From an uncultured archaeon (GTDB lineage: Archaea > Thermoproteota > Nitrososphaeria_A > Caldarchaeales > Wolframiiraptoraceae), in the NCBI GenBank assembly GCA_938083505.1, contig CALKCF010000004.1:32001-96000 (forward strand): DNA of 64,000 nt, in the 5' to 3' direction. This document shows positions 11,926 through 18,874 of this stretch, in pieces. The notes below the pieces were generated by a model. The model saw only the letters and a list, made by a program, of their open reading frames with translations, ran no database searches and was not told the DNA's origin. Position 1 is the stretch's first letter; every line of letters starts with the position of its first letter. A program made the position numbers and the translations under genes.

Positions 11926-13059
11926 ATGCCCGCGTTCTTTGCAACAATAGTTACAGGGCTAGAAGATGTTGGGGCAAAAGAGGTCGAGTCTATAGTAGGC
12001 TGTAAAGCAAGGCCGGATGCCGGTAAGGTGTTCTTCGAATGCGACATTTATGGTGCTGTATTGCTGAACTTTACCTCTCGTTGTTTACATAAGATTTTCC
12101 TATTACTTGGACACGATACCGTTTCCTCGCTGGAAGATGTTGCACGCCTTGCACGTAGTATAGATTATGCTGAGCTGATCCTACCGTCGCAGTCGTTCGC
12201 CGTTAGGGTCGAGAAACATGGTGAGCATGAGCTTAGAAGCCTCGATATTGCCTCAACTGTAGGCAAGAGTGTCGTAGAGTCTTACCTTGCATCCAAAAAC
12301 GTCAGGCTTGTTGTCAATTTAGACAACCCAGATGTCGAGCTGTATGCTTTGCTGAGGAACAATGAGTTGCTGATTGGCTTGAACATGACTGGGCAATCGC
12401 TTCATAGAAGGTTTTACAAAACATTCTATCATAGAGCGTCGCTCATGCCGACGATAGCTTGCTCCATGATATTGCTGAGCGGTTGGAAACCGGGAGAGAG
12501 TTTGTTAGATCCGATGTGTGGAGGCGGAACGATACCGATAGAGGCGGCACTGATGGCAAGACGCATAGCGCCAGGCTTGAGAAAGGGTAATCTGGCCTTA
12601 GAGAGGCTATTCTTCATCGAAAAAGAGCTTATTGGAGAGATTCGCGACAAGCTTCTCTCAAACGAGACGAATGTTATGGTGGAAATCTACGGCATAGATG
12701 TCTCGCCAAAGAGTGTTGAAGGTGCACTTGTTAACGCAGCCAAGGCGAACGTATTGGATACTGTGTCAATAAAGGTTGGCGACGCATTAAATTTAGTTAA
12801 TTACATAAGCGAGCCGCCCGATCACATCATAACGAATCCGCCCTACGGTATAAGGATGGGTATCAGGAACATAGAAAAGTTCTATGAGAGAATCTTAACG
12901 TCGATTAGACAGGCGGCTCCGCATGCAACTATAACGATAATAACGAGTAAGTCGAACCTTCTCAGAAGGATTGCGGAAGCGCTCAGAATGCAAGTGGTCG
13001 AGGCTAGACAGTTGTTCTACGGAAGGATTCAAGCGAACATAATTAAGCTGTTGCAATAA
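11926..13059 (+). CDS. trm14: THUMP-domain tRNA m2G6 methyltransferase (Trm14-like)
   Basis: THUMP domain, SLHRR, LDPMCGGGTIPIEAA and TNPPYG. Confidence 0.8.
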   Translation: MPAFFATIVTGLEDVGAKEVESIVGCKARPDAGKVFFECDIYGAVLLNFTSRCLHKIFLLLGHDTVSSLEDVARLARSIDYAELILPSQSFAVRVEKHGEHELRSLDIASTVGKSVVESYLASKNVRLVVNLDNPDVELYALLRNNELLIGLNMTGQSLHRRFYKTFYHRASLMPTIACSMILLSGWKPGESLLDPMCGGGTIPIEAALMARRIAPGLRKGNLALERLFFIEKELIGEIRDKLLSNETNVMVEIYGIDVSPKSVEGALVNAAKANVLDTVSIKVGDALNLVNYISEPPDHIITNPPYGIRMGIRNIEKFYERILTSIRQAAPHATITIITSKSNLLRRIAEALRMQVVEARQLFYGRIQANIIKLLQ

Positions 13060-13070
13060 AAATTAACTCT

Positions 13071-14354
13071 TTACTTGCAAAAATTCATCCAGCCTTCCAT
13101 CTTCTCCCATGACCAGCTGTAGCTTGCCGGCACAGCATACCCATAGACTATGCAACCACGCCAAACCGAGTACTGCGGCTCCGATGCCATAGTAACCTCT
13201 ATGTTCTCTATGCCCTTCTCCGCCATCATACGTTTAATCTTCGTAGCAGAATCCACGCAGACGTTCTTCAACTTCTCTGGAACCCTCCAAGAGAAGTTCC
13301 CACCGGATAAGAGTATCTGGCTGTAGAGCAGTGGCTGGAGCTCAACAGGACACTTCTCTACAGCACTTATTATCGCTTCAGCCATGTTAAGCATTCCATA
13401 AAAGACAACATCACCGACCTTTGTGTCCCTTGGTCTCGGCATCCCTCTCTTAAAATAACTCTGAAATATTTCGTGGTTTGGGTTAAAGACGTACTCGCCG
13501 ACTAAAAATCTTGTCCAAGAGTTCTCGGCAAGGTCTATCTTGAGTCTAGTTCCAGGAACCGAATAGACCGTCCTAACAGCATCTGGGTTATTTTTAGCGA
13601 ATGAAATGGCAGAGTTTAAATCAGCAGGCAATAGACCCAGGTTTTCCTTAACCTTTCTCACCAGAGTCTCCTCAGCAGCCAAATCACCATAACCAGCATC
13701 TTTGAGGATTTCTGTCATGATAGCGTTGGCATCGCTCCCTCCCCTATTCAAAGCTATGACAGCACCTCTTATGGGTGCTCTAGAGATTGGTGCGAACTGT
13801 GTATTTCCATGCCCGCTCTCCACCACGACGCAAGATGTCTTCTTGTGAGCTATGGCGACAGCAAGAGGTTGCGAAATTATTGTTGCCGAATGTACGAGGC
13901 CCGCCTCTTTGGCCATGCTCTCAAGCATTTCAAAGAACTTCTCGTACATGTACCTCGGCGCGACGGCTGAGAGTGCGGCCACGACATAAAAACCATTGAA
14001 GCCCCAACCCTTTGGCTTGAACTCCTCTAACGCATGGCGCATCAGCTCCCTCACCACTTTCCATGCTTTTACATCGTCCTTCATGATGATGCCTTCTCTC
14101 ATCGGGTAGATGAGTCGTGTGGCGAGCTCTGCACCGCTCTCCAAGAATAGCGTTATATCCTTTCCGACGATCACTTCACGGTCAACACCCATTATCTGGG
14201 AGAGAATTGTTTTCTCAGGGAAGTAACCCCTGTTTTCTACGACAAGAGGTCTCTCGCCTTGGGTTATTGGCCCGTACTTAAACTCGCTTGTACCGTAATC
14301 CGTTCCGAACACGTAACGCTTTTTGTAATCTTCGTCATGCATCTCCATCAACAA
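13071..14354 (-). CDS. Crenactin (archaeal actin homolog)
   Basis: Phosphate-1 motif FGTDYGTSEFKYGPIT, QPLAVAIA, phosphate-2 motif VESGHGNTQ, ALNRGG, adenosine motif ILLSGGNFSW, and EPQYSVWRG. These align with Pyrobaculum crenactin as I recall it. Confidence 0.93.
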   Translation of the reverse strand: MLMEMHDEDYKKRYVFGTDYGTSEFKYGPITQGERPLVVENRGYFPEKTILSQIMGVDREVIVGKDITLFLESGAELATRLIYPMREGIIMKDDVKAWKVVRELMRHALEEFKPKGWGFNGFYVVAALSAVAPRYMYEKFFEMLESMAKEAGLVHSATIISQPLAVAIAHKKTSCVVVESGHGNTQFAPISRAPIRGAVIALNRGGSDANAIMTEILKDAGYGDLAAEETLVRKVKENLGLLPADLNSAISFAKNNPDAVRTVYSVPGTRLKIDLAENSWTRFLVGEYVFNPNHEIFQSYFKRGMPRPRDTKVGDVVFYGMLNMAEAIISAVEKCPVELQPLLYSQILLSGGNFSWRVPEKLKNVCVDSATKIKRMMAEKGIENIEVTMASEPQYSVWRGCIVYGYAVPASYSWSWEKMEGWMNFCK

Positions 14355-14386
14355 TATCTATAATGCTTATGAATTTAAGCGTTAAA

Positions 14387-15052
14387 CTAACCTTTGCCCG
14401 CTAATATATCGAGCCATGGATTGTCTTTTACGAATGACGGTAACTCAATTTCGGAGTTAAGGTTAGCTATCTTGTCAGGCACATACTGTACTGTAGGTTT
14501 GACGTGCAATGGGCGCATACCCTCAAAACTCAGTAACTTGTTAGAGAGTTCGTTGTATGCTACCTCGAGCCTCTCCAACCTTGCCACCAACGCGTCTATT
14601 TCATTTACCTTATAGACAACCCTCTCCAGCCTCTCTATCCTTTCAAGCACTTGCAAAACTTCCTCGTATTTTATAGGCACGCTACCTTCATTCCCCATCT
14701 CGTCGTGCTTTATGTTCTTTACAATGGGTGGCAACTCCTCTATACCATGCGGTCCATACAACAGAAGACCTATGCCGTGCAACCTGATAACCATGAACTC
14801 ATCCATAGAGCTCATGTTCTTCGGAACCAAGATGTATGGTTTCTCACCTTTGGCCGCCCAGAAAGCAGACTGCAGAGCGGCGGAGATTAACTCCAGCCTA
14901 CCATCGGTATCATCAAGTATCTTGACGACATAAGTAGAACTGTTCCCAACGAACCTCAGCGTATCTTCTTCCACACTACCGCTATCGAACCTCAGGCCCT
15001 GCCTTGACATGTAGCTGATGACATTCCTTTCAAGAATGGTCCGCGGTACCAA
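14387..15052 (-). CDS. Arcadin-2-like crenactin-binding protein
   Basis: Directly upstream of crenactin on the same strand. Globular N-domain, coiled coil, and C-terminal DNPWLDILAGKG, which resembles the arcadin-2 tail helix. Confidence 0.72.
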   Translation of the reverse strand: MVPRTILERNVISYMSRQGLRFDSGSVEEDTLRFVGNSSTYVVKILDDTDGRLELISAALQSAFWAAKGEKPYILVPKNMSSMDEFMVIRLHGIGLLLYGPHGIEELPPIVKNIKHDEMGNEGSVPIKYEEVLQVLERIERLERVVYKVNEIDALVARLERLEVAYNELSNKLLSFEGMRPLHVKPTVQYVPDKIANLNSEIELPSFVKDNPWLDILAGKG

Positions 15053-15140
15053 AATCTGTCAAATTACATAACAAGGCTTTTTCGTTAAAAGGTTATTTGA
15101 GTAAGGTATGGGGAGAGTTTACCGAAAGTGAAGATGAGCT

Positions 15141-16106
15141 TCAGAAGGCCTTAATCGAGACAAGCTCGTTGAGAATATGCTGCGGAGCCCTTGGTCCTCT
15201 GAACAACATGGCAGTCATTATCTGAACGGTGTTTGCACCAGCCCTTAACGCTTCTAAGGCGTCAGCTCCTGTCATTATGCCACCGACTGCGTTTATCTCG
15301 ATTTCTTCGCCCAGCTCCTTTCTAATCTCCCTCACAGTTTCTAGCATTATGCGTGTTAGTGGTCTGCCACTCAAACCACCCCTTCCTAGCGCGAGCTCTG
15401 GTGCATCGACCAAGAGTGTGTTAACGGCCGTTACGCCGTCCATTCCACAATCCATCCATACTTTTACCAACTTACACATCTCATTCATCTCTTCGGAGGT
15501 CGTTGGTGGCGGAATCTTGATGTATGCGGGCTTCAATTTTATCCCCTTCAACATCTCGACAAATTCACGCAAATTTTTTGGTTCCTTCATATATGTGCTA
15601 GCTTCGTTTGTAGGGCATGAGATATTTACCTCAACGGCATCAACGACTTTCTGCAGAGCGGCAAAGCATTCGACAAATTCGTTAATCGTGTTGCCTGTTA
15701 TGCTGGCGACGACCTTGCAACCTTCAACCCTTTTAAAGTTCTTCAAGAACTTCATTATACCAGGGTTGGGCAGACCCATAGCGTTGACGACTGCCTGTTC
15801 CGCTTCCCTGTAAGCTATTCTTGGTTTAGGATGGCCCTTTCTCGGATTTAGCGTAAAGCTGCCCACTACTATGTAGCCGAAGCCAAGCTTGGACAGTGCC
15901 TTGACGTACTTACCGCTTTTATCATAACCTGCCGCGAGACCTAATGGGTTCTTCAATCTACCCATCTTCGTTTCAACCTCTAAGTCTTTTGGAGACTCAA
16001 ACTCCAATGGTAGGTACTTCAAAAGCCTAAGCCAAGTAGCATGCAGGAGTTCTGATCCTAAAATACGCGCCAAGAGTTTTACTGCGGGATTTATCCTAAA
16101 CGACAA
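15141..16106 (-). CDS. pyrD: Dihydroorotate dehydrogenase
   Basis: NPLGLAAGYDK, VNAMGLPN, EVNISCPT, GGLSG and VGGI; divergent from pyrBIC. Confidence 0.9.
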   Translation of the reverse strand: MSFRINPAVKLLARILGSELLHATWLRLLKYLPLEFESPKDLEVETKMGRLKNPLGLAAGYDKSGKYVKALSKLGFGYIVVGSFTLNPRKGHPKPRIAYREAEQAVVNAMGLPNPGIMKFLKNFKRVEGCKVVASITGNTINEFVECFAALQKVVDAVEVNISCPTNEASTYMKEPKNLREFVEMLKGIKLKPAYIKIPPPTTSEEMNEMCKLVKVWMDCGMDGVTAVNTLLVDAPELALGRGGLSGRPLTRIMLETVREIRKELGEEIEINAVGGIMTGADALEALRAGANTVQIMTAMLFRGPRAPQHILNELVSIKAF

Positions 16107-16232: not shown

Positions 16233-17150
16233 GTGTGGAAGTTTAGGGATGTTATATCTATACTGGACTACACCAGGGATGAACTTGAGCACCTTTTTTC
16301 CGTGACCGATAGGGTGCTTGAACGCCCAGTAGATGTTGGAAAGCCGTTGGAGGGTAACATAGTAGCCACAGCATTCATAGAACCAAGCACCAGGACGAGG
16401 CTGAGCTTCGAGACAGCTGCTAAAAGGCTTGGTGCAGAAATCATAAACCTTGAACCTCAGCTGTCATCTATGACTAAGGGTGAGAGTTTAACCGACACGC
16501 TTAGGATGCTAGATGACTATGCCGACCTAATAGTGATAAGGAGCCCATACGAGGGGTCGGCAAAACATGCTGCCGATATCTGCGAGCATCCTGTGATAAA
16601 CGGTGGTGATGGGACGCAGCACCATCCAACTCAGGCAATGATAGACCTGTATACGATAAGGAAGTTAAAGGGTAGGATAGATGGGTTGGAAGTTGGTGTG
16701 GTCGGTGACCTGAAGTACGGTAGGGCCGCTGCATCCTTCATATACGGCCTAACGAAGTTTAACGTTAGAAAGATATGGTTGGTGTCGCCTGAACCTCTTT
16801 CACCAAGACCTGAACTTATGGATAGGCTGAGGAAAATGAGCGTGGACATCGTGAAGACAGAGAACATAGAAGAAGCTGTGGAGAACGTTGACATCCTCTA
16901 CGTAACGAGGATACAAAAGGAGAGATTTCCCGACCTTGCTGAGTATGAGAAGCTAAGAGGTAGCTACGTGATAACGAGGAAGCTCCTCTCAAGGGCACGT
17001 GAGGGTCTAAAGGTCTTGCACCCCCTCCCGAGGGTTGATGAGCTCTCTAATGACGTAGACGATACGCCATACCAAGCGTATTTCGTTCAAGCTAAGCTCG
17101 GAGTTCCCGTCAGGATGGCTCTGATAGGTTTAGTTCTGGGAGTGTTTTAG
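16233..17150 (+). CDS. pyrB: Aspartate carbamoyltransferase catalytic subunit
   Basis: EPSTRTRLSF, HHPTQ, YVTRIQKERF and HPLPR. Confidence 0.97.
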   Translation: MWKFRDVISILDYTRDELEHLFSVTDRVLERPVDVGKPLEGNIVATAFIEPSTRTRLSFETAAKRLGAEIINLEPQLSSMTKGESLTDTLRMLDDYADLIVIRSPYEGSAKHAADICEHPVINGGDGTQHHPTQAMIDLYTIRKLKGRIDGLEVGVVGDLKYGRAAASFIYGLTKFNVRKIWLVSPEPLSPRPELMDRLRKMSVDIVKTENIEEAVENVDILYVTRIQKERFPDLAEYEKLRGSYVITRKLLSRAREGLKVLHPLPRVDELSNDVDDTPYQAYFVQAKLGVPVRMALIGLVLGVF

Positions 17151-17636
17151 ATGTCCCATACGAACGAACAGGAAACTTTACGGGTGAGCAAGATAAAGAA
17201 TGGAACGGTCATAGACCACATACCCGCAGGTAGGGCTTTAGCCGTCCTAAGACTGCTTGGAATAACTGGAGGCGAGGGACACGTTATAACTGTGACGATG
17301 AATGTTAAGAGTGGGAAACTCGGTAAGAAGGACCTAGTAAAGGTCGAGGATCTTGAACTCATGGCTGAGCAGGTCAACAAATTGACACTTATAGCACCTA
17401 CCGCCACGATAAACATAATACGGAATTATGAGGTTGTAGAGAAGAGAGCGGTCAAGCTGCCCGATAGAATAACTGGCATCCTTAGGTGTACAAACCCAGG
17501 TTGTATAACTAGGCAACCCATGGAGCACGTGAGCTCAAAGTTTATTGTAGTCTCGAAGACCCCTCTAAGGCTCGAGTGTGAATACTGCGGTAGATATCTT
17601 GAGGAGGAAGAAGTGCTTAAGCAATTGACACAGTAG
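17151..17636 (+). CDS. pyrI: Aspartate carbamoyltransferase regulatory subunit
   Basis: GTVIDHIPAG, CTNPGCIT and CEYC. Confidence 0.97.
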   Translation: MSHTNEQETLRVSKIKNGTVIDHIPAGRALAVLRLLGITGGEGHVITVTMNVKSGKLGKKDLVKVEDLELMAEQVNKLTLIAPTATINIIRNYEVVEKRAVKLPDRITGILRCTNPGCITRQPMEHVSSKFIVVSKTPLRLECEYCGRYLEEEEVLKQLTQ

Positions 17637-18874
17637 TGAAGACTATGGCGGGTCTGAGAATAGTCGGCAGGGCACTCGTAGACGGTAAGCTCCTAGACGA
17701 AGTTACTGTCGAGATAGATGGCGAGTTCATATCATCCGTGAGCATCGGCGAGAGCGGCTCAGGTCCTAGGCTTTTATTAAGTAAGGGCCAGCTACTCCTA
17801 CCCTCTGCCACGGACCTCCATGTCCACCTCAGGGATTGGGATCAAGCCTACAAGGAGGATGTGTTCACTGGAACATCCGCTGCGGCCGCTGGTGGTATCA
17901 CGACGATAGCGGAGATGCCCAACACCGTGCCGCCAATAAGGAGTCCTGAAGCTCTTAGGGAAAGGCTCAAGCTACTGGCAACGCGCGCCGTCGTGGACTA
18001 TGCGGTTCATATAGGCCCTCTCAAAAAACCCGAGGATGCCAGCAGAGCGTTGGAGTTGGGGGCATGCGGTATGAAGCTCTACCCTGAAGACTTGGAAAGA
18101 CTCGAAGATTATCTTAGGGTTTCAAGGGAGAGCGGTATAAGGCTTGTCGTACACGCAGAATTAAAGGGAGGTGATGAGGTGGAGACTGTAAAGATGCTGT
18201 TATCGTACGTGAAAGCAGGTGACGACATAAGGTTAGCACACATATCGAGGGCTGAGTCTCTGAGGATTATAGAGCTTGCGAAGAAAGAGCTTGGCGCGAG
18301 AATAACGGTAGAAGCAACGCCCCACCATCTCCTTCTATCTTATGAAGAGCTTGATGAGAATTCTAGGAGAATATCGACGGTGAGACCTCCACTCGCCTCC
18401 ATGTCTGATAGGCAGTACATTTTTTCAGGCTTAAAGAGGTGTTCCGTGGATTTCATAGCATCCGACCATGCACCGCATACCTTAGAAGAGAAGCTCTCTG
18501 GAAAAAATGCGCCAGGTTTTCCCGGTTTAGAGATAACATATCCTCTGATGCTGACCGAATGGTTTGAGGACAGGCTTGATATATCAACACTCGTCAAAAA
18601 GCTTTGCAGAGCCCCAGCCGAGTACCTCGGCATACCTAAAGGCGAGATTAAGAAGGGCTTCTACGCCGACCTAGCTGTCTTCGATATGAGAGAGCGGTGG
18701 AGCATAAGCGCGAAGGATTTCTTAAGTAAGGCGAAGTACACGCCCTTCGAGGGTAGAAAACTGTCAGCAAAGCTCATATCGGTCTTCAGGAGGGGCGAGC
18801 TGATATACAACGGCGAACTCATAGCGAAAGGTGGCGGGATCCATGTCAGCGAACTTAGGCAAAAGCACGGATAA
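17636..18874 (+). CDS. pyrC: Dihydroorotase
   Basis: DLHVHLR, AAAGGITT..EMPNT, ATPHHL and ASDHAPH. Confidence 0.93.
   Translation: MKTMAGLRIVGRALVDGKLLDEVTVEIDGEFISSVSIGESGSGPRLLLSKGQLLLPSATDLHVHLRDWDQAYKEDVFTGTSAAAAGGITTIAEMPNTVPPIRSPEALRERLKLLATRAVVDYAVHIGPLKKPEDASRALELGACGMKLYPEDLERLEDYLRVSRESGIRLVVHAELKGGDEVETVKMLLSYVKAGDDIRLAHISRAESLRIIELAKKELGARITVEATPHHLLLSYEELDENSRRISTVRPPLASMSDRQYIFSGLKRCSVDFIASDHAPHTLEEKLSGKNAPGFPGLEITYPLMLTEWFEDRLDISTLVKKLCRAPAEYLGIPKGEIKKGFYADLAVFDMRERWSISAKDFLSKAKYTPFEGRKLSAKLISVFRRGELIYNGELIAKGGGIHVSELRQKHG

What the first reader, a model, noticed from the sequence alone, without database searches (positions are those of the whole stretch)
13071..15052. Minimal archaeal actin module: crenactin plus an arcadin-2-like regulator only
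Seen: a two-gene unit between trm14 and pyrD, with an intact actin-fold ATPase and an upstream protein ending in LPSFVKDNPWLDILAGKG. Known: in Thermoproteales crenactin sits in a five-gene arcade cluster, and the C-terminal helix of arcadin-2 binds the hydrophobic groove and blocks polymerisation, like a WH2 helix. Inference: this lineage keeps only a filament plus inhibitor core at this locus, with no arcadin-1/3/4 beside it. That predicts a rod or filament cell shape and offers a minimal model of actin regulation.
Basis: partly seen in the sequence, partly recalled or inferred. Interest (0 to 1): 0.7.

Follow-up and report, generated by a model that had tools for sequence, protein, structure and literature searches.

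The report
Crenactin with its arcadin-2 partner gene
A hot-spring archaeon (Candidatus Terraquivivens) carries the known archaeal actin, crenactin, next to a true but divergent arcadin-2 regulator, and the supposedly "minimal" set is most likely an artefact, because a third partner gene, arcadin-1, lies elsewhere in all sister genomes and falls in an assembly gap here.

Summary
Window 13071-14354(-) encodes an intact crenactin (PDB 4cj7, E 2e-112). Window 14387-15052(-) encodes a 221-aa protein ending LPSFVKDNPWLDILAGKG. Standard libraries give this protein no name, but profile comparison shows it is an arcadin-2 orthologue (99.6%, E 1e-23; 90% with the C-terminal tail removed). The motif LPSFxxDNPW[LVI]xxL sits beside crenactin across the phylum. 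A co-fold places W213 and L217 in the crenactin hydrophobic groove (score 0.88, best control 0.00), but a similar complex is already solved (5LY3).

The "minimal module" reading is not supported.
- Arcadin-1 is present and unlinked in 6 of 6 congeners and in 66 of 76 genomes of the order.
- Its syntenic place falls between the ends of two contigs of this assembly.
- The source run holds a 55-kb contig colinear with that region, at the divergence expected for this organism.

Published surveys already give Caldarchaeales crenactin, arcadin-1 and arcadin-2.

Smaller new points:
- Arcadin-2 lies upstream of crenactin here, and downstream in most lineages.
- Its N-terminal domain has a PD-(D/E)XK-like fold and lacks the catalytic acid.
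- A conserved promoter-like element lies between the two genes.

The parts
13071..14354 (-). Crenactin (archaeal actin). The ORF is 427 aa from the TTG at 14354. The conserved ATG at 14342 would give 423 aa.
   Evidence: PDB 4cj7/5ly3, E 2.2e-112 over residues 8-423. NCBIfam crenactin 558.5 bits. ATP-site residues invariant in 56 homologues. Sits in a 100/100 clade of six Terraquivivens crenactins. Start codon from the alignment.
14373..14386 (-). Conserved TTTAACG-CTTAAAT element directly after the arcadin-2 stop codon, about 28-34 nt before the crenactin ATGs. It may be crenactin's own BRE/TATA-type promoter (inference).
   Evidence: Invariant in 5 congeners while the neighbouring bases vary. 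No transcript data.
14387..15052 (-). Arcadin-2 orthologue, 221 aa.
   Evidence: hhalign against Thermoproteales arcadin-2: 99.6%, E 1.1e-23, 188 columns. With tails removed and only Pyrobaculum/Thermoproteus rows: 90%, E 1.5e-6. Homologues in 39 of 41 relatives. No Pfam, NCBIfam or PDB sequence hit.
14723..15052 (-). Arcadin-2 N-terminal alpha/beta domain (aa 1-110), with a restriction-endonuclease-like fold that is probably not catalytic.
   Evidence: AF2 block pLDDT 81-91, topology a-b-b-b-a-b-a-b-b. Foldseek top hits are splicing endonuclease, PaqCI, XisH and Hjc. VIA Z 10.7, rmsd 3.4, 105 aligned (2okf); Z 10.0 (8em1). The middle acid of (D/E)xK is hydrophobic in all 38 sequences.
14519..14671 (-). 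Arcadin-2 long helix (aa 128-178), a putative coiled coil.
   Evidence: Single 51-residue helix in the model, block pLDDT mostly 80-91 and lower at its C-terminal end. Heptad-like LERxxxL repeats in alignment A1. Oligomeric state not tested.
14396..14440 (-). Arcadin-2 C-terminal crenactin-binding helix (aa 205-219, PSFVKDNPWLDILAG), after a disordered linker (aa 180-200).
   Evidence: N211, W213 and L217 are invariant in 38 homologues across the phylum. The same motif occurs next to crenactin in Thermofilum-like, Vulcanisaeta-like and Pyrobaculum loci. The co-fold puts W213/L217 against crenactin 167-173 and 399-412.
15083..15097 (-). Conserved AATAACCTTTTAACG element 31-45 nt upstream of the arcadin-2 TTG start. 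Promoter-like (inference).
   Evidence: Invariant, apart from one C/T position, in 6 congeners.
11926..13059 (+). Flank: THUMP-domain RNA methyltransferase (Trm14/RlmL-like).
   Evidence: Pfam UPF0020 4.8e-44, THUMP 1.1e-11.
15141..16106 (-). Flank: dihydroorotate dehydrogenase (pyrD).
   Evidence: Pfam DHO_dh 1.9e-62.

Best explanation
The locus is the crenactin/arcadin-2 pair of a Candidatus Terraquivivens genome (Wolframiiraptoraceae, Caldarchaeales, formerly Aigarchaeota). Crenactin is an ATP-dependent, filament-forming actin homologue. The 221-aa upstream gene is a divergent orthologue of arcadin-2 with four parts: an N-terminal PD-(D/E)XK-like domain that lacks the catalytic acid, a long helix (probable coiled coil), a disordered linker, and a short C-terminal amphipathic helix (DNPWLDIL). 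By homology with the P. calidifontis pair, this helix inserts W213 and L217 into the hydrophobic groove between crenactin subdomains IA and IIA. There it competes with the D-loop of the next subunit, so it sequesters monomers or depolymerises filaments. The pair is not a self-sufficient minimal system. The genus also has arcadin-1 at an unlinked locus, and that locus is simply missing from this assembly. The genome also encodes FtsZ and ESCRT-III. Shown here: the homology, the conserved motif, the synteny and the assembly gap. Inferred: binding, inhibition of polymerisation, separate promoters and loss of nuclease activity.
For: Identity of the two genes
- Crenactin.
- Arcadin-2 homology: profile-profile 99.6%, E 1.1e-23 over 188 columns. 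The N-terminal domain alone, against Pyrobaculum/Thermoproteus arcadin-2 only: 90%, E 1.5e-6. With Thermofilum-like and Vulcanisaeta-like rows added: 98.3%, E 1.7e-14.
- P. calidifontis arcadin-2 was identified by NCBIfam Rkd2 at 298.6 bits, above its cut-off. It ends GENEWVKILRSKR.
- The motif LPSFxxDNPW[LVI]xxL ends an ORF directly beside crenactin in 23 of the 30 loci examined across the phylum.
- N211, W213 and L217 are invariant in 38 sequences.

Binding
- Published biochemistry: the last 17 residues of arcadin-2 bind the crenactin groove and depolymerise filaments. The full-length complex has a Kd of 31 nM, and a tryptophan is the key contact (PMC5173319).
- Co-fold of crenactin with aa 182-221: score 0.88, best of 3 controls 0.00. 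That mark was reached by 58 of 80 solved complexes and 2 of 110 mismatched pairs. The runs agree in at least 72% of their contacts, and the partner's pLDDT is at least 63. A similar complex (5LY3) is solved, so this shows likeness, not that this copy binds.
- Groove residues V166, A167, I168, G400 and P409 are invariant.

Not minimal.

Genus name.

The literature already lists crenactin, arcadin-1 and arcadin-2 for Caldarchaeales (bioRxiv 10.1101/2022.04.06.487207).
Against: - Pairwise BLASTP to P. calidifontis arcadin-2 is not significant, and the NCBIfam Rkd2 equivalog model gives no hit. Membership therefore rests on profile comparison and the motif.
- Crenactin scores 558.5 bits, below the 630-bit equivalog cut-off.
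- Nothing here measures binding or polymerisation.
- Arcadin-1 is not in the assembly itself.
- Gene order differs from Pyrobaculum: arcadin-2 is upstream here.
Confidence: 0.82

Rival explanations
1. The module is truly minimal. This species has lost arcadin-1, and with it about 20 kb of neighbouring DNA, and runs crenactin with arcadin-2 alone.
For: PF18653 has no match at E <= 1 in a 98.5%-complete assembly. tblastn with the congener's arcadin-1 gives nothing. Three of the four genomes of family f3 in the order also lack a hit.
Against: All 6 congeners have arcadin-1. The missing stretch lies exactly between two contig ends, not at a joined deletion. It also carries pyrF-pyrE, although pyrB, pyrI, pyrC and pyrD are present in the window. 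The source run holds a 55-kb colinear contig at the expected divergence.
Confidence: 0.07
2. Arcadin-2 here is mainly an adaptor or capping factor rather than a monomer sequesterer. A coiled-coil dimer would present two groove-binding helices, as ParR does for ParM, and would tether the groove end of crenactin filaments to whatever the nuclease-like N-terminal domain binds.
For: Domain layout from the model. PD-(D/E)XK-like fold. PMC5173319 notes that the arcadin-2 peptide has the same orientation in the groove as ParR in ParM. The Culexarchaeia preprint (bioRxiv 10.1101/2022.04.06.487207, read) recounts that immunostaining in P. calidifontis placed arcadin-2 at mid-cell between segregated nucleoids. 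The N-terminal domain is conserved across the phylum, which a pure sequestering peptide would not need.
Against: The N-terminal domains are acidic (median pI 5.25, net charge -3), which argues against plain DNA binding. In vitro the full-length Pyrobaculum protein and the peptide depolymerise filaments alike, and the truncated protein lacking the C-terminus does nothing. Dimerisation was not tested here.
Confidence: 0.12
3. The upstream ORF is an unrelated hypothetical protein, and its terminal resemblance to arcadin-2 is chance.
For: No Pfam, NCBIfam or PDB sequence hit. Pairwise BLASTP is not significant.
Against: Profile-profile E 1.1e-23, and E 1.5e-6 without the tail. The gene keeps its place next to crenactin across many families.
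Confidence: 0.01

Closest known systems
Pyrobaculum calidifontis crenactin with arcadin-2 (arcade cluster; PDB 4CJ7, 5LY3, 5LY4; Izore et al. 2016, PMC5173319)
   Same: Same two protein families next to each other on one strand. The actin fold has conserved ATP-site residues. Arcadin-2 has the same layout: an alpha/beta N-terminal domain, a helical middle, a non-conserved linker and a short conserved C-terminal helix with the key Trp. The groove contact is predicted to be the same.
   Different: - Crenactin is only about 45% identical.
- Arcadin-2 is about 15% identical to the Pyrobaculum protein in the wider alignment and is not recognised by the curated Rkd2 model.
- The motif is DNPWLDIL rather than ENEWVKIL.
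- Arcadin-2 is upstream, not downstream, of crenactin.
- Arcadin-1 is not adjacent, and arcadin-3 and -4 were not found.
- The host also has FtsZ and ESCRT-III, which Thermoproteales are reported to lack.
Caldarchaeales (Aigarchaeota) cytoskeletal gene set as published: FtsZ2, CdvBC, crenactin, arcadin-1, arcadin-2 (cited in bioRxiv 10.1101/2022.04.06.487207 / PMC9723716)
   Same: The gene set found here and in relatives is the same: crenactin and arcadin-2, arcadin-1 in relatives, and FtsZ and Snf7.
   Different: In this one assembly arcadin-1 falls in a gap. Gene order and linkage of arcadin-2 vary within the order. I did not see this described in the papers I read.
Groove-binding actin regulators: WH2/thymosin beta-4 on actin, ParR on ParM
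   Same: A short amphipathic helix binds the hydrophobic groove between subdomains IA and IIA (1 and 3) and blocks the longitudinal D-loop contact.
   Different: There is no sequence relationship. The thymosin helix is oriented the other way round; the ParR orientation is the same (PMC5173319). This is an analogy of mechanism, not family membership.
PD-(D/E)XK (restriction-endonuclease-like) fold proteins, e.g. XisH 2okf, the PaqCI N-terminal domain, Hjc
   Same: The N-terminal 110 residues have the same fold topology, with VIA Z 10.7 to 6.8 and Foldseek E 7.6e-4 to 1e-2.
   Different: Sequence identity is 6-16%. The central acidic residue of (D/E)xK is hydrophobic in all 38 homologues. The domain is acidic. 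No nuclease activity is implied.

Membership tests
Crenactin (NCBIfam NF053560; actin superfamily) | Full-length sequence similarity to experimentally characterised crenactin | tested here: met
   4cj7/5ly3, E 2.2e-112, query residues 8-423 against 6-428. About 45% identity to the P. calidifontis protein.
Crenactin (NCBIfam NF053560; actin superfamily) | Score above the curated equivalog cut-off (630 bits) | tested here: inconclusive
   558.5 bits, below the cut-off but about 500 bits above the next family, MamK at 50.5. In the tree the protein lies inside the crenactin clade of Thermoproteota.
Crenactin (NCBIfam NF053560; actin superfamily) | Conserved nucleotide-binding and catalytic residues (phosphate loops; Gln equivalent to Q164) | tested here: met
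   D19, G21, T22, Q162, E179, G181, H182, G183, G351 and G352 are invariant in 56 sequences. Q164 is named in PMC5173319.
Crenactin (NCBIfam NF053560; actin superfamily) | ATP-dependent assembly into double-helical filaments | not testable with these tools
   Needs purified protein, light scattering and EM.
Arcadin-2 (Rkd2, NCBIfam NF053561) | Gene directly adjacent to crenactin on the same strand | tested here: met
   32-nt gap. Adjacent in the genus and in family f4; downstream in most other lineages; unlinked in family f2 genera g6 and g9.
Arcadin-2 (Rkd2, NCBIfam NF053561) | Conserved C-terminal helix with Trp, after a non-conserved linker | tested here: met
   N211, W213 and L217 invariant in 38 sequences. 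Linker aa 180-200 has pLDDT below 50. The motif compares with P. calidifontis ENEWVKIL.
Arcadin-2 (Rkd2, NCBIfam NF053561) | Homology of the N-terminal core, independent of the tail | tested here: met
   hhalign 90%, E 1.5e-6 (Pyrobaculum/Thermoproteus rows only, tails removed). 98.3%, E 1.7e-14 with further Thermoproteales rows.
Arcadin-2 (Rkd2, NCBIfam NF053561) | Hit to the curated equivalog model (cut-off 290 bits) | tested here: not met
   No hit at E <= 0.01 for the protein and none at E <= 10 in the genome. P. calidifontis arcadin-2 itself clears the cut-off only narrowly (298.6 against 290 bits), so I read the model as narrow. I therefore file this as a divergent orthologue, not an equivalog by NCBI's threshold.
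Arcadin-2 (Rkd2, NCBIfam NF053561) | Binds the crenactin hydrophobic groove and depolymerises filaments | not testable with these tools
   A co-fold supports the pose (0.88 against control 0.00), but a similar complex is solved, so it may come from the model's memory.
Five-gene arcade cluster (crenactin with arcadin-1 to -4, Thermoproteaceae) | Arcadin-1 adjacent to crenactin | tested here: not met
   None lies in the window beside the pair. PF18653 is absent from the assembly. It is unlinked in congeners, for example on other contigs, or 16-60 kb away in family f4.
Five-gene arcade cluster (crenactin with arcadin-1 to -4, Thermoproteaceae) | Arcadin-4 (SMC/Rad50-like) downstream of arcadin-2 | tested here: not met
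   The best Rkd4 hit in the genome is Rad50, next to Mre11. 0 of 76 genomes of the order reach the cut-off, and none in the genus reaches E 1e-30.
Five-gene arcade cluster (crenactin with arcadin-1 to -4, Thermoproteaceae) | Arcadin-3 (small protein) | tested here: inconclusive
   The best Rkd3 hit has E 0.1. The 56-position model also matches 11 of 14 control genomes at this level.
PD-(D/E)XK nuclease superfamily (N-terminal domain of arcadin-2) | a-b-b-b-a-b core fold | tested here: met
   Model topology. VIA Z 10.7, rmsd 3.4, 105 aligned (2okf); Z 10.0 (8em1). Most of the top 50 are nucleases of this fold. Foldseek agrees.
PD-(D/E)XK nuclease superfamily (N-terminal domain of arcadin-2) | Catalytic D...(D/E)xK residues | tested here: not met
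   The residue at the (D/E) position of beta-3 (window V42) is V, A, I, F, Y or L in all 38 sequences. Only a partly conserved acid (position 29, 27 of 38) and base (position 44, 28 of 38) remain. The mapping rests on the predicted strands.

The most novel reading that the evidence does not exclude
The crenactin/arcadin-2 pair, and not the five-gene arcade cluster, is the ancestral and widespread core of the Thermoproteota actin system. Arcadin-2 is then more than a sequestering peptide: it is a coiled-coil dimer built on a catalytically dead nuclease fold that docks crenactin subunits or filament ends, much as ParR docks ParM, onto an unknown cellular partner.
Probability: 0.15. Interest if true: 0.6.

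Novelty: new member of a known kind. Interest (0 to 1): 0.25.

Why it matters
As a discovery it matters little. Crenactin, arcadin-1 and arcadin-2 are already reported for Caldarchaeales, and the "minimal" character is best explained by an assembly gap plus unlinked genes. Three points are still useful.
- Current curated models (Pfam, NCBIfam Rkd2) do not recognise arcadin-2 outside Thermoproteales. The motif LPSFxxDNPW[LVI]xxL and the profiles built here do recognise it.
- The groove-binding helix is conserved across the phylum next to crenactin, which makes crenactin/arcadin-2 the conserved unit for studying actin regulation in archaea.
- The nuclease-like N-terminal domain gives a starting point for asking what arcadin-2 does besides binding crenactin.

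Tried and rejected
- Sequence searches of the 221-aa protein against Pfam, NCBIfam and the PDB gave no family. The only PDB rows were weak matches to a lectin repeat and other noise.
- Pairwise BLASTP against P. calidifontis arcadin-2 was not significant.
- NCBIfam Rkd2, Rkd3 and Rkd4 and Pfam Arcadin_1 were searched in the window's own genome. There was no Rkd2 or Arcadin_1 hit. The Rkd3 hit is noise. The Rkd4 hits are Rad50 and SMC.
- I checked whether rRNA explains the gap. The congener's region holds only two tRNAs and no rRNA.
- No RNA holder is listed for this stretch, so there is no expression evidence either way.
The decisive overlap test with C6 and C7 could not be run.
- The heptamer TTTAACG, shared by both upstream regions, is only modestly enriched in the window: 17 against 8.5 expected, and 1 of 100 shuffles reached 17. 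I treat it as a generic promoter-like word, not a dedicated operator.
- I considered DNA binding by the N-terminal domain, but the domains are acidic.
- Papers on cultivated Caldarchaeales gave no statement on Terraquivivens cell shape.
Full report
**Observation**

Two ORFs lie on the minus strand at the stated coordinates.

The first, 13071-14354, is 427 aa.
- It matches Pfam Actin.
- It aligns over residues 8-423 with Pyrobaculum calidifontis crenactin (PDB 4cj7, 5ly3, 5mw1) at E 2.2e-112.
- It scores 558.5 bits on NCBIfam crenactin. That is below the 630-bit equivalog cut-off but far above any other family.
- In an alignment of 56 crenactins the phosphate-loop and catalytic residues are invariant: D19, G21, T22, Q162, G181-H182-G183, G351-G352.

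The second, 14387-15052, is 221 aa and ends LPSFVKDNPWLDILAGKG.

The flanks are a THUMP methyltransferase and pyrD.

**Organism**

The window is contig C4 of a 1.15-Mb assembly of 10 contigs, estimated 98.5% complete. The closest named records are Candidatus Terraquivivens species. This genus belongs to the Wolframiiraptoraceae, Caldarchaeales (PMC9246946).

**Identity of the upstream protein**

Pfam, NCBIfam and the PDB give no sequence hit. BLASTP against P. calidifontis arcadin-2 is not significant.

I took the true arcade cluster from a 2,009,313-bp genome (locus L043). Its parts were identified as follows:
- arcadin-1 by PDB 5ly5 and Pfam PF18653;
- arcadin-2 by NCBIfam Rkd2, above its cut-off;
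- arcadin-4 by NCBIfam Rkd4.

P. calidifontis arcadin-2 ends GENEWVKILRSKR.

I then scanned 30 crenactin loci from across the phylum. In 23 of them an ORF of about 190-280 aa lies directly beside crenactin and ends with [DEN][NDE]xW[VLIM]x[ILVM][LIM]. In most lineages the fuller form is LPSFxxDNPW[LVI]xxL. Examples are LPSFIQDNPWLRILS in a Thermofilum-like genome and LPDYLSNNPWIEVLR in a Vulcanisaeta-like one.

Profile-profile comparison gave these results:
- 18 Caldarchaeales sequences against 10 Thermoproteales arcadin-2 sequences: 99.6% probability, E 1.1e-23, 188 aligned columns.
- C-terminal 25 residues removed, only Pyrobaculum/Thermoproteus rows kept: the N-terminal domains still align at 90%, E 1.5e-6.
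- The same, with the other Thermoproteales rows added: 98.3%, E 1.7e-14.

The protein is therefore an arcadin-2 orthologue that the curated models miss.

**How it probably works**

An AlphaFold2 model (mean pLDDT 76) shows four parts:
- an alpha/beta domain, aa 1-110;
- one long helix, aa 128-178;
- a disordered linker, aa 180-200;
- a short terminal helix, aa 206-219.

N211, W213 and L217 are invariant in 38 homologues.

[quoted passage not shown] They depolymerise filaments as well as the full-length protein does. The full-length complex has a Kd of 31 nM, and a tryptophan is the main contact (PMC5173319).

A co-fold of the window's crenactin with aa 182-221 scored 0.88, against 0.00 for the best of three controls. 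That mark was reached by 58 of 80 solved complexes and 2 of 110 mismatched pairs. The runs agree in at least 72% of contacts, and the partner's pLDDT is at least 63. W213 and L217 touch crenactin residues 167-173 and 399-412. Because 5LY3 is a solved complex of the same kind, this pass shows likeness and does not prove that this copy binds. The groove residues are invariant in the family.

I conclude, by homology, that the C-terminal helix competes with the D-loop and sequesters monomers or depolymerises filaments.

**N-terminal domain**

Foldseek ranks splicing endonuclease, PaqCI, XisH, AF2093 and Hjc first, at E 7.6e-4 to 1e-2. VIA-align against 48,161 chains gives:
- Z 10.7 (2okf; rmsd 3.4, 105 aligned);
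- Z 10.0 (8em1);
- Z 9.8 (2ph7);
- Z 9.6 (1y88).

Most of the list is PD-(D/E)XK nucleases. The position that should carry the acid of (D/E)xK is hydrophobic in all 38 sequences. The domains are acidic, with a median pI of 5.25. So the fold is nuclease-like, but I expect neither catalysis nor plain DNA binding. An earlier first-reader note in this scan proposed the same fold; my test supports it.

**Is the module minimal?**

Nothing else lies at the locus, but the wider claim fails for arcadin-1.
- Pfam Arcadin_1 finds a gene in 66 of 76 genomes of the order and in all 6 congeners. It is never next to crenactin. This genome is the exception, with no hit.
- I mapped the congener G004's contig onto this assembly. 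G004 positions 120-162 kb match contig C3. Positions 166-172 kb match the last 10 kb of C6. Positions 192 kb onward match C7 from its base 50. The 20 kb in between, with arcadin-1 at 183.7 kb, have no counterpart.
- That stretch is conserved in four congeners. It holds ordinary genes: two ADP-forming acetyl-CoA synthetases, glycine-cleavage protein H, TldD and a pyrF-pyrE fusion. This assembly has no OMP decarboxylase at all, although pyrB, pyrI, pyrC and pyrD lie in the window.
- The run that holds 99% of the window's words, and is probably its source, contains one 55,178-nt contig. It is colinear with the G004 arcadin-1 region at 83.1% identity over 11.1 kb, and it covers the arcadin-1 gene. 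Syntenic DNA of this genome and G004 is 80.7-82.5% identical.

The most likely reading is that arcadin-1 exists in this organism and was lost at assembly or binning.

Arcadin-4 was not found. The best hit is Rad50 beside Mre11, and no genome of the order reaches the Rkd4 cut-off. The arcadin-3 search is uninformative.

FtsZ and an ESCRT-III homologue are present. This is the gene set already published for Caldarchaeales: FtsZ2, CdvBC, crenactin, arcadin-1 and arcadin-2.

**Wider pattern**
- Crenactin was found in 139 of 401 sampled genomes of the phylum.
- Arcadin-2 lies directly downstream of crenactin in Thermoproteales and most other lineages.
- It lies directly upstream in Terraquivivens, in family f4 (which includes the 1,680,938-bp genome G030) and in genus g15.
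- It is unlinked in family f2 genera g6 and g9.
- Arcadin-4 follows arcadin-2 in 17 of the 30 crenactin loci examined, Thermoproteales and some others.
- Arcadin-1 lies within a few kb of crenactin in 12 of those 30 loci.
- Several lineages, like this one, show only the pair. A two-gene locus is therefore common, not special to this lineage.

**Regulatory hints (inference only)**

Directly after the arcadin-2 stop codon, TTTAACG-CTTAAAT is invariant in five congeners. AATAACCTTTTAACG is invariant 31-45 nt upstream of the arcadin-2 start in six. These look like archaeal BRE/TATA elements, which would allow the two genes to be transcribed separately. The heptamer itself is only about twice as frequent as expected in the window.

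**Verdict**

This is a correctly spotted crenactin/arcadin-2 pair and a new member of a known system in a lineage already reported to have it. The "minimal module" interpretation is very probably an artefact. Interest is low to moderate.

Noticed in passing
G000 contigs C6 (end, about 182,888-183,046) and C7 (start, about 1-50), compared with locus L071 (G004:C2:177000-191000): About 20 kb that is conserved in four congeners is missing from this assembly between two contig ends. It carries arcadin-1, two ADP-forming acetyl-CoA synthetases, gcvH, TldD and a pyrF-pyrE fusion. The assembly therefore lacks OMP decarboxylase despite an estimated completeness of 98.5%.
   Followed up: yes
window 14387-15052 (aa 1-14): The protein collection lists the window's own protein at 207 aa, covering 94% of the query (P0001). 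The first 14 residues (MVPRTILERNVISY), read from the TTG at 15052, are conserved across the order, with R4 nearly invariant. The longer reading is therefore the likelier one.
   Followed up: partly
crenactin tree; loci L013, L041 against L014-L040: Terraquivivens crenactins (family f1, genus g1) group at 100/100 support with those of families f2 and f4, apart from the two other f1 genera sampled (g4, g5). Arcadin-2 shows the same pattern: 34% identity to an f4 genome against 29-30% to f1 genera. The upstream gene order is also shared with f4. This could reflect transfer of the pair, unequal rates or the family delimitation. It was not tested against a species tree.
   Followed up: partly
window 15098-15140 (minus strand, between the pyrD stop and the arcadin-2 promoter-like element): A second conserved intergenic word, TTCACTTTCG, is invariant in six congeners just downstream of the pyrD stop codon. 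Its function is unknown.
   Followed up: no
window 16233-18874: pyrB, pyrI and a dihydroorotase-like gene (by my reading of the ORF translations; not scanned against a family library) lie on the opposite strand from pyrD. The actin pair is therefore embedded in a pyrimidine-biosynthesis neighbourhood.
   Followed up: no
loci L110-L113 (G415, G023, G021, G364; family f1, genus g2): A few Caldarchaeales genomes carry SMC-like proteins of about 800 aa that align end to end with the arcadin-4 model at 105-139 bits, far below the cut-off. They could be distant arcadin-4-like proteins or another Rad50 paralogue. None occurs in Terraquivivens.
   Followed up: no
run X1: The run that holds 99% of the window's words is labelled 'marine metagenome', whereas the named congeners come from terrestrial hot springs (Tengchong, Yellowstone, Tikitere).
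   Followed up: no
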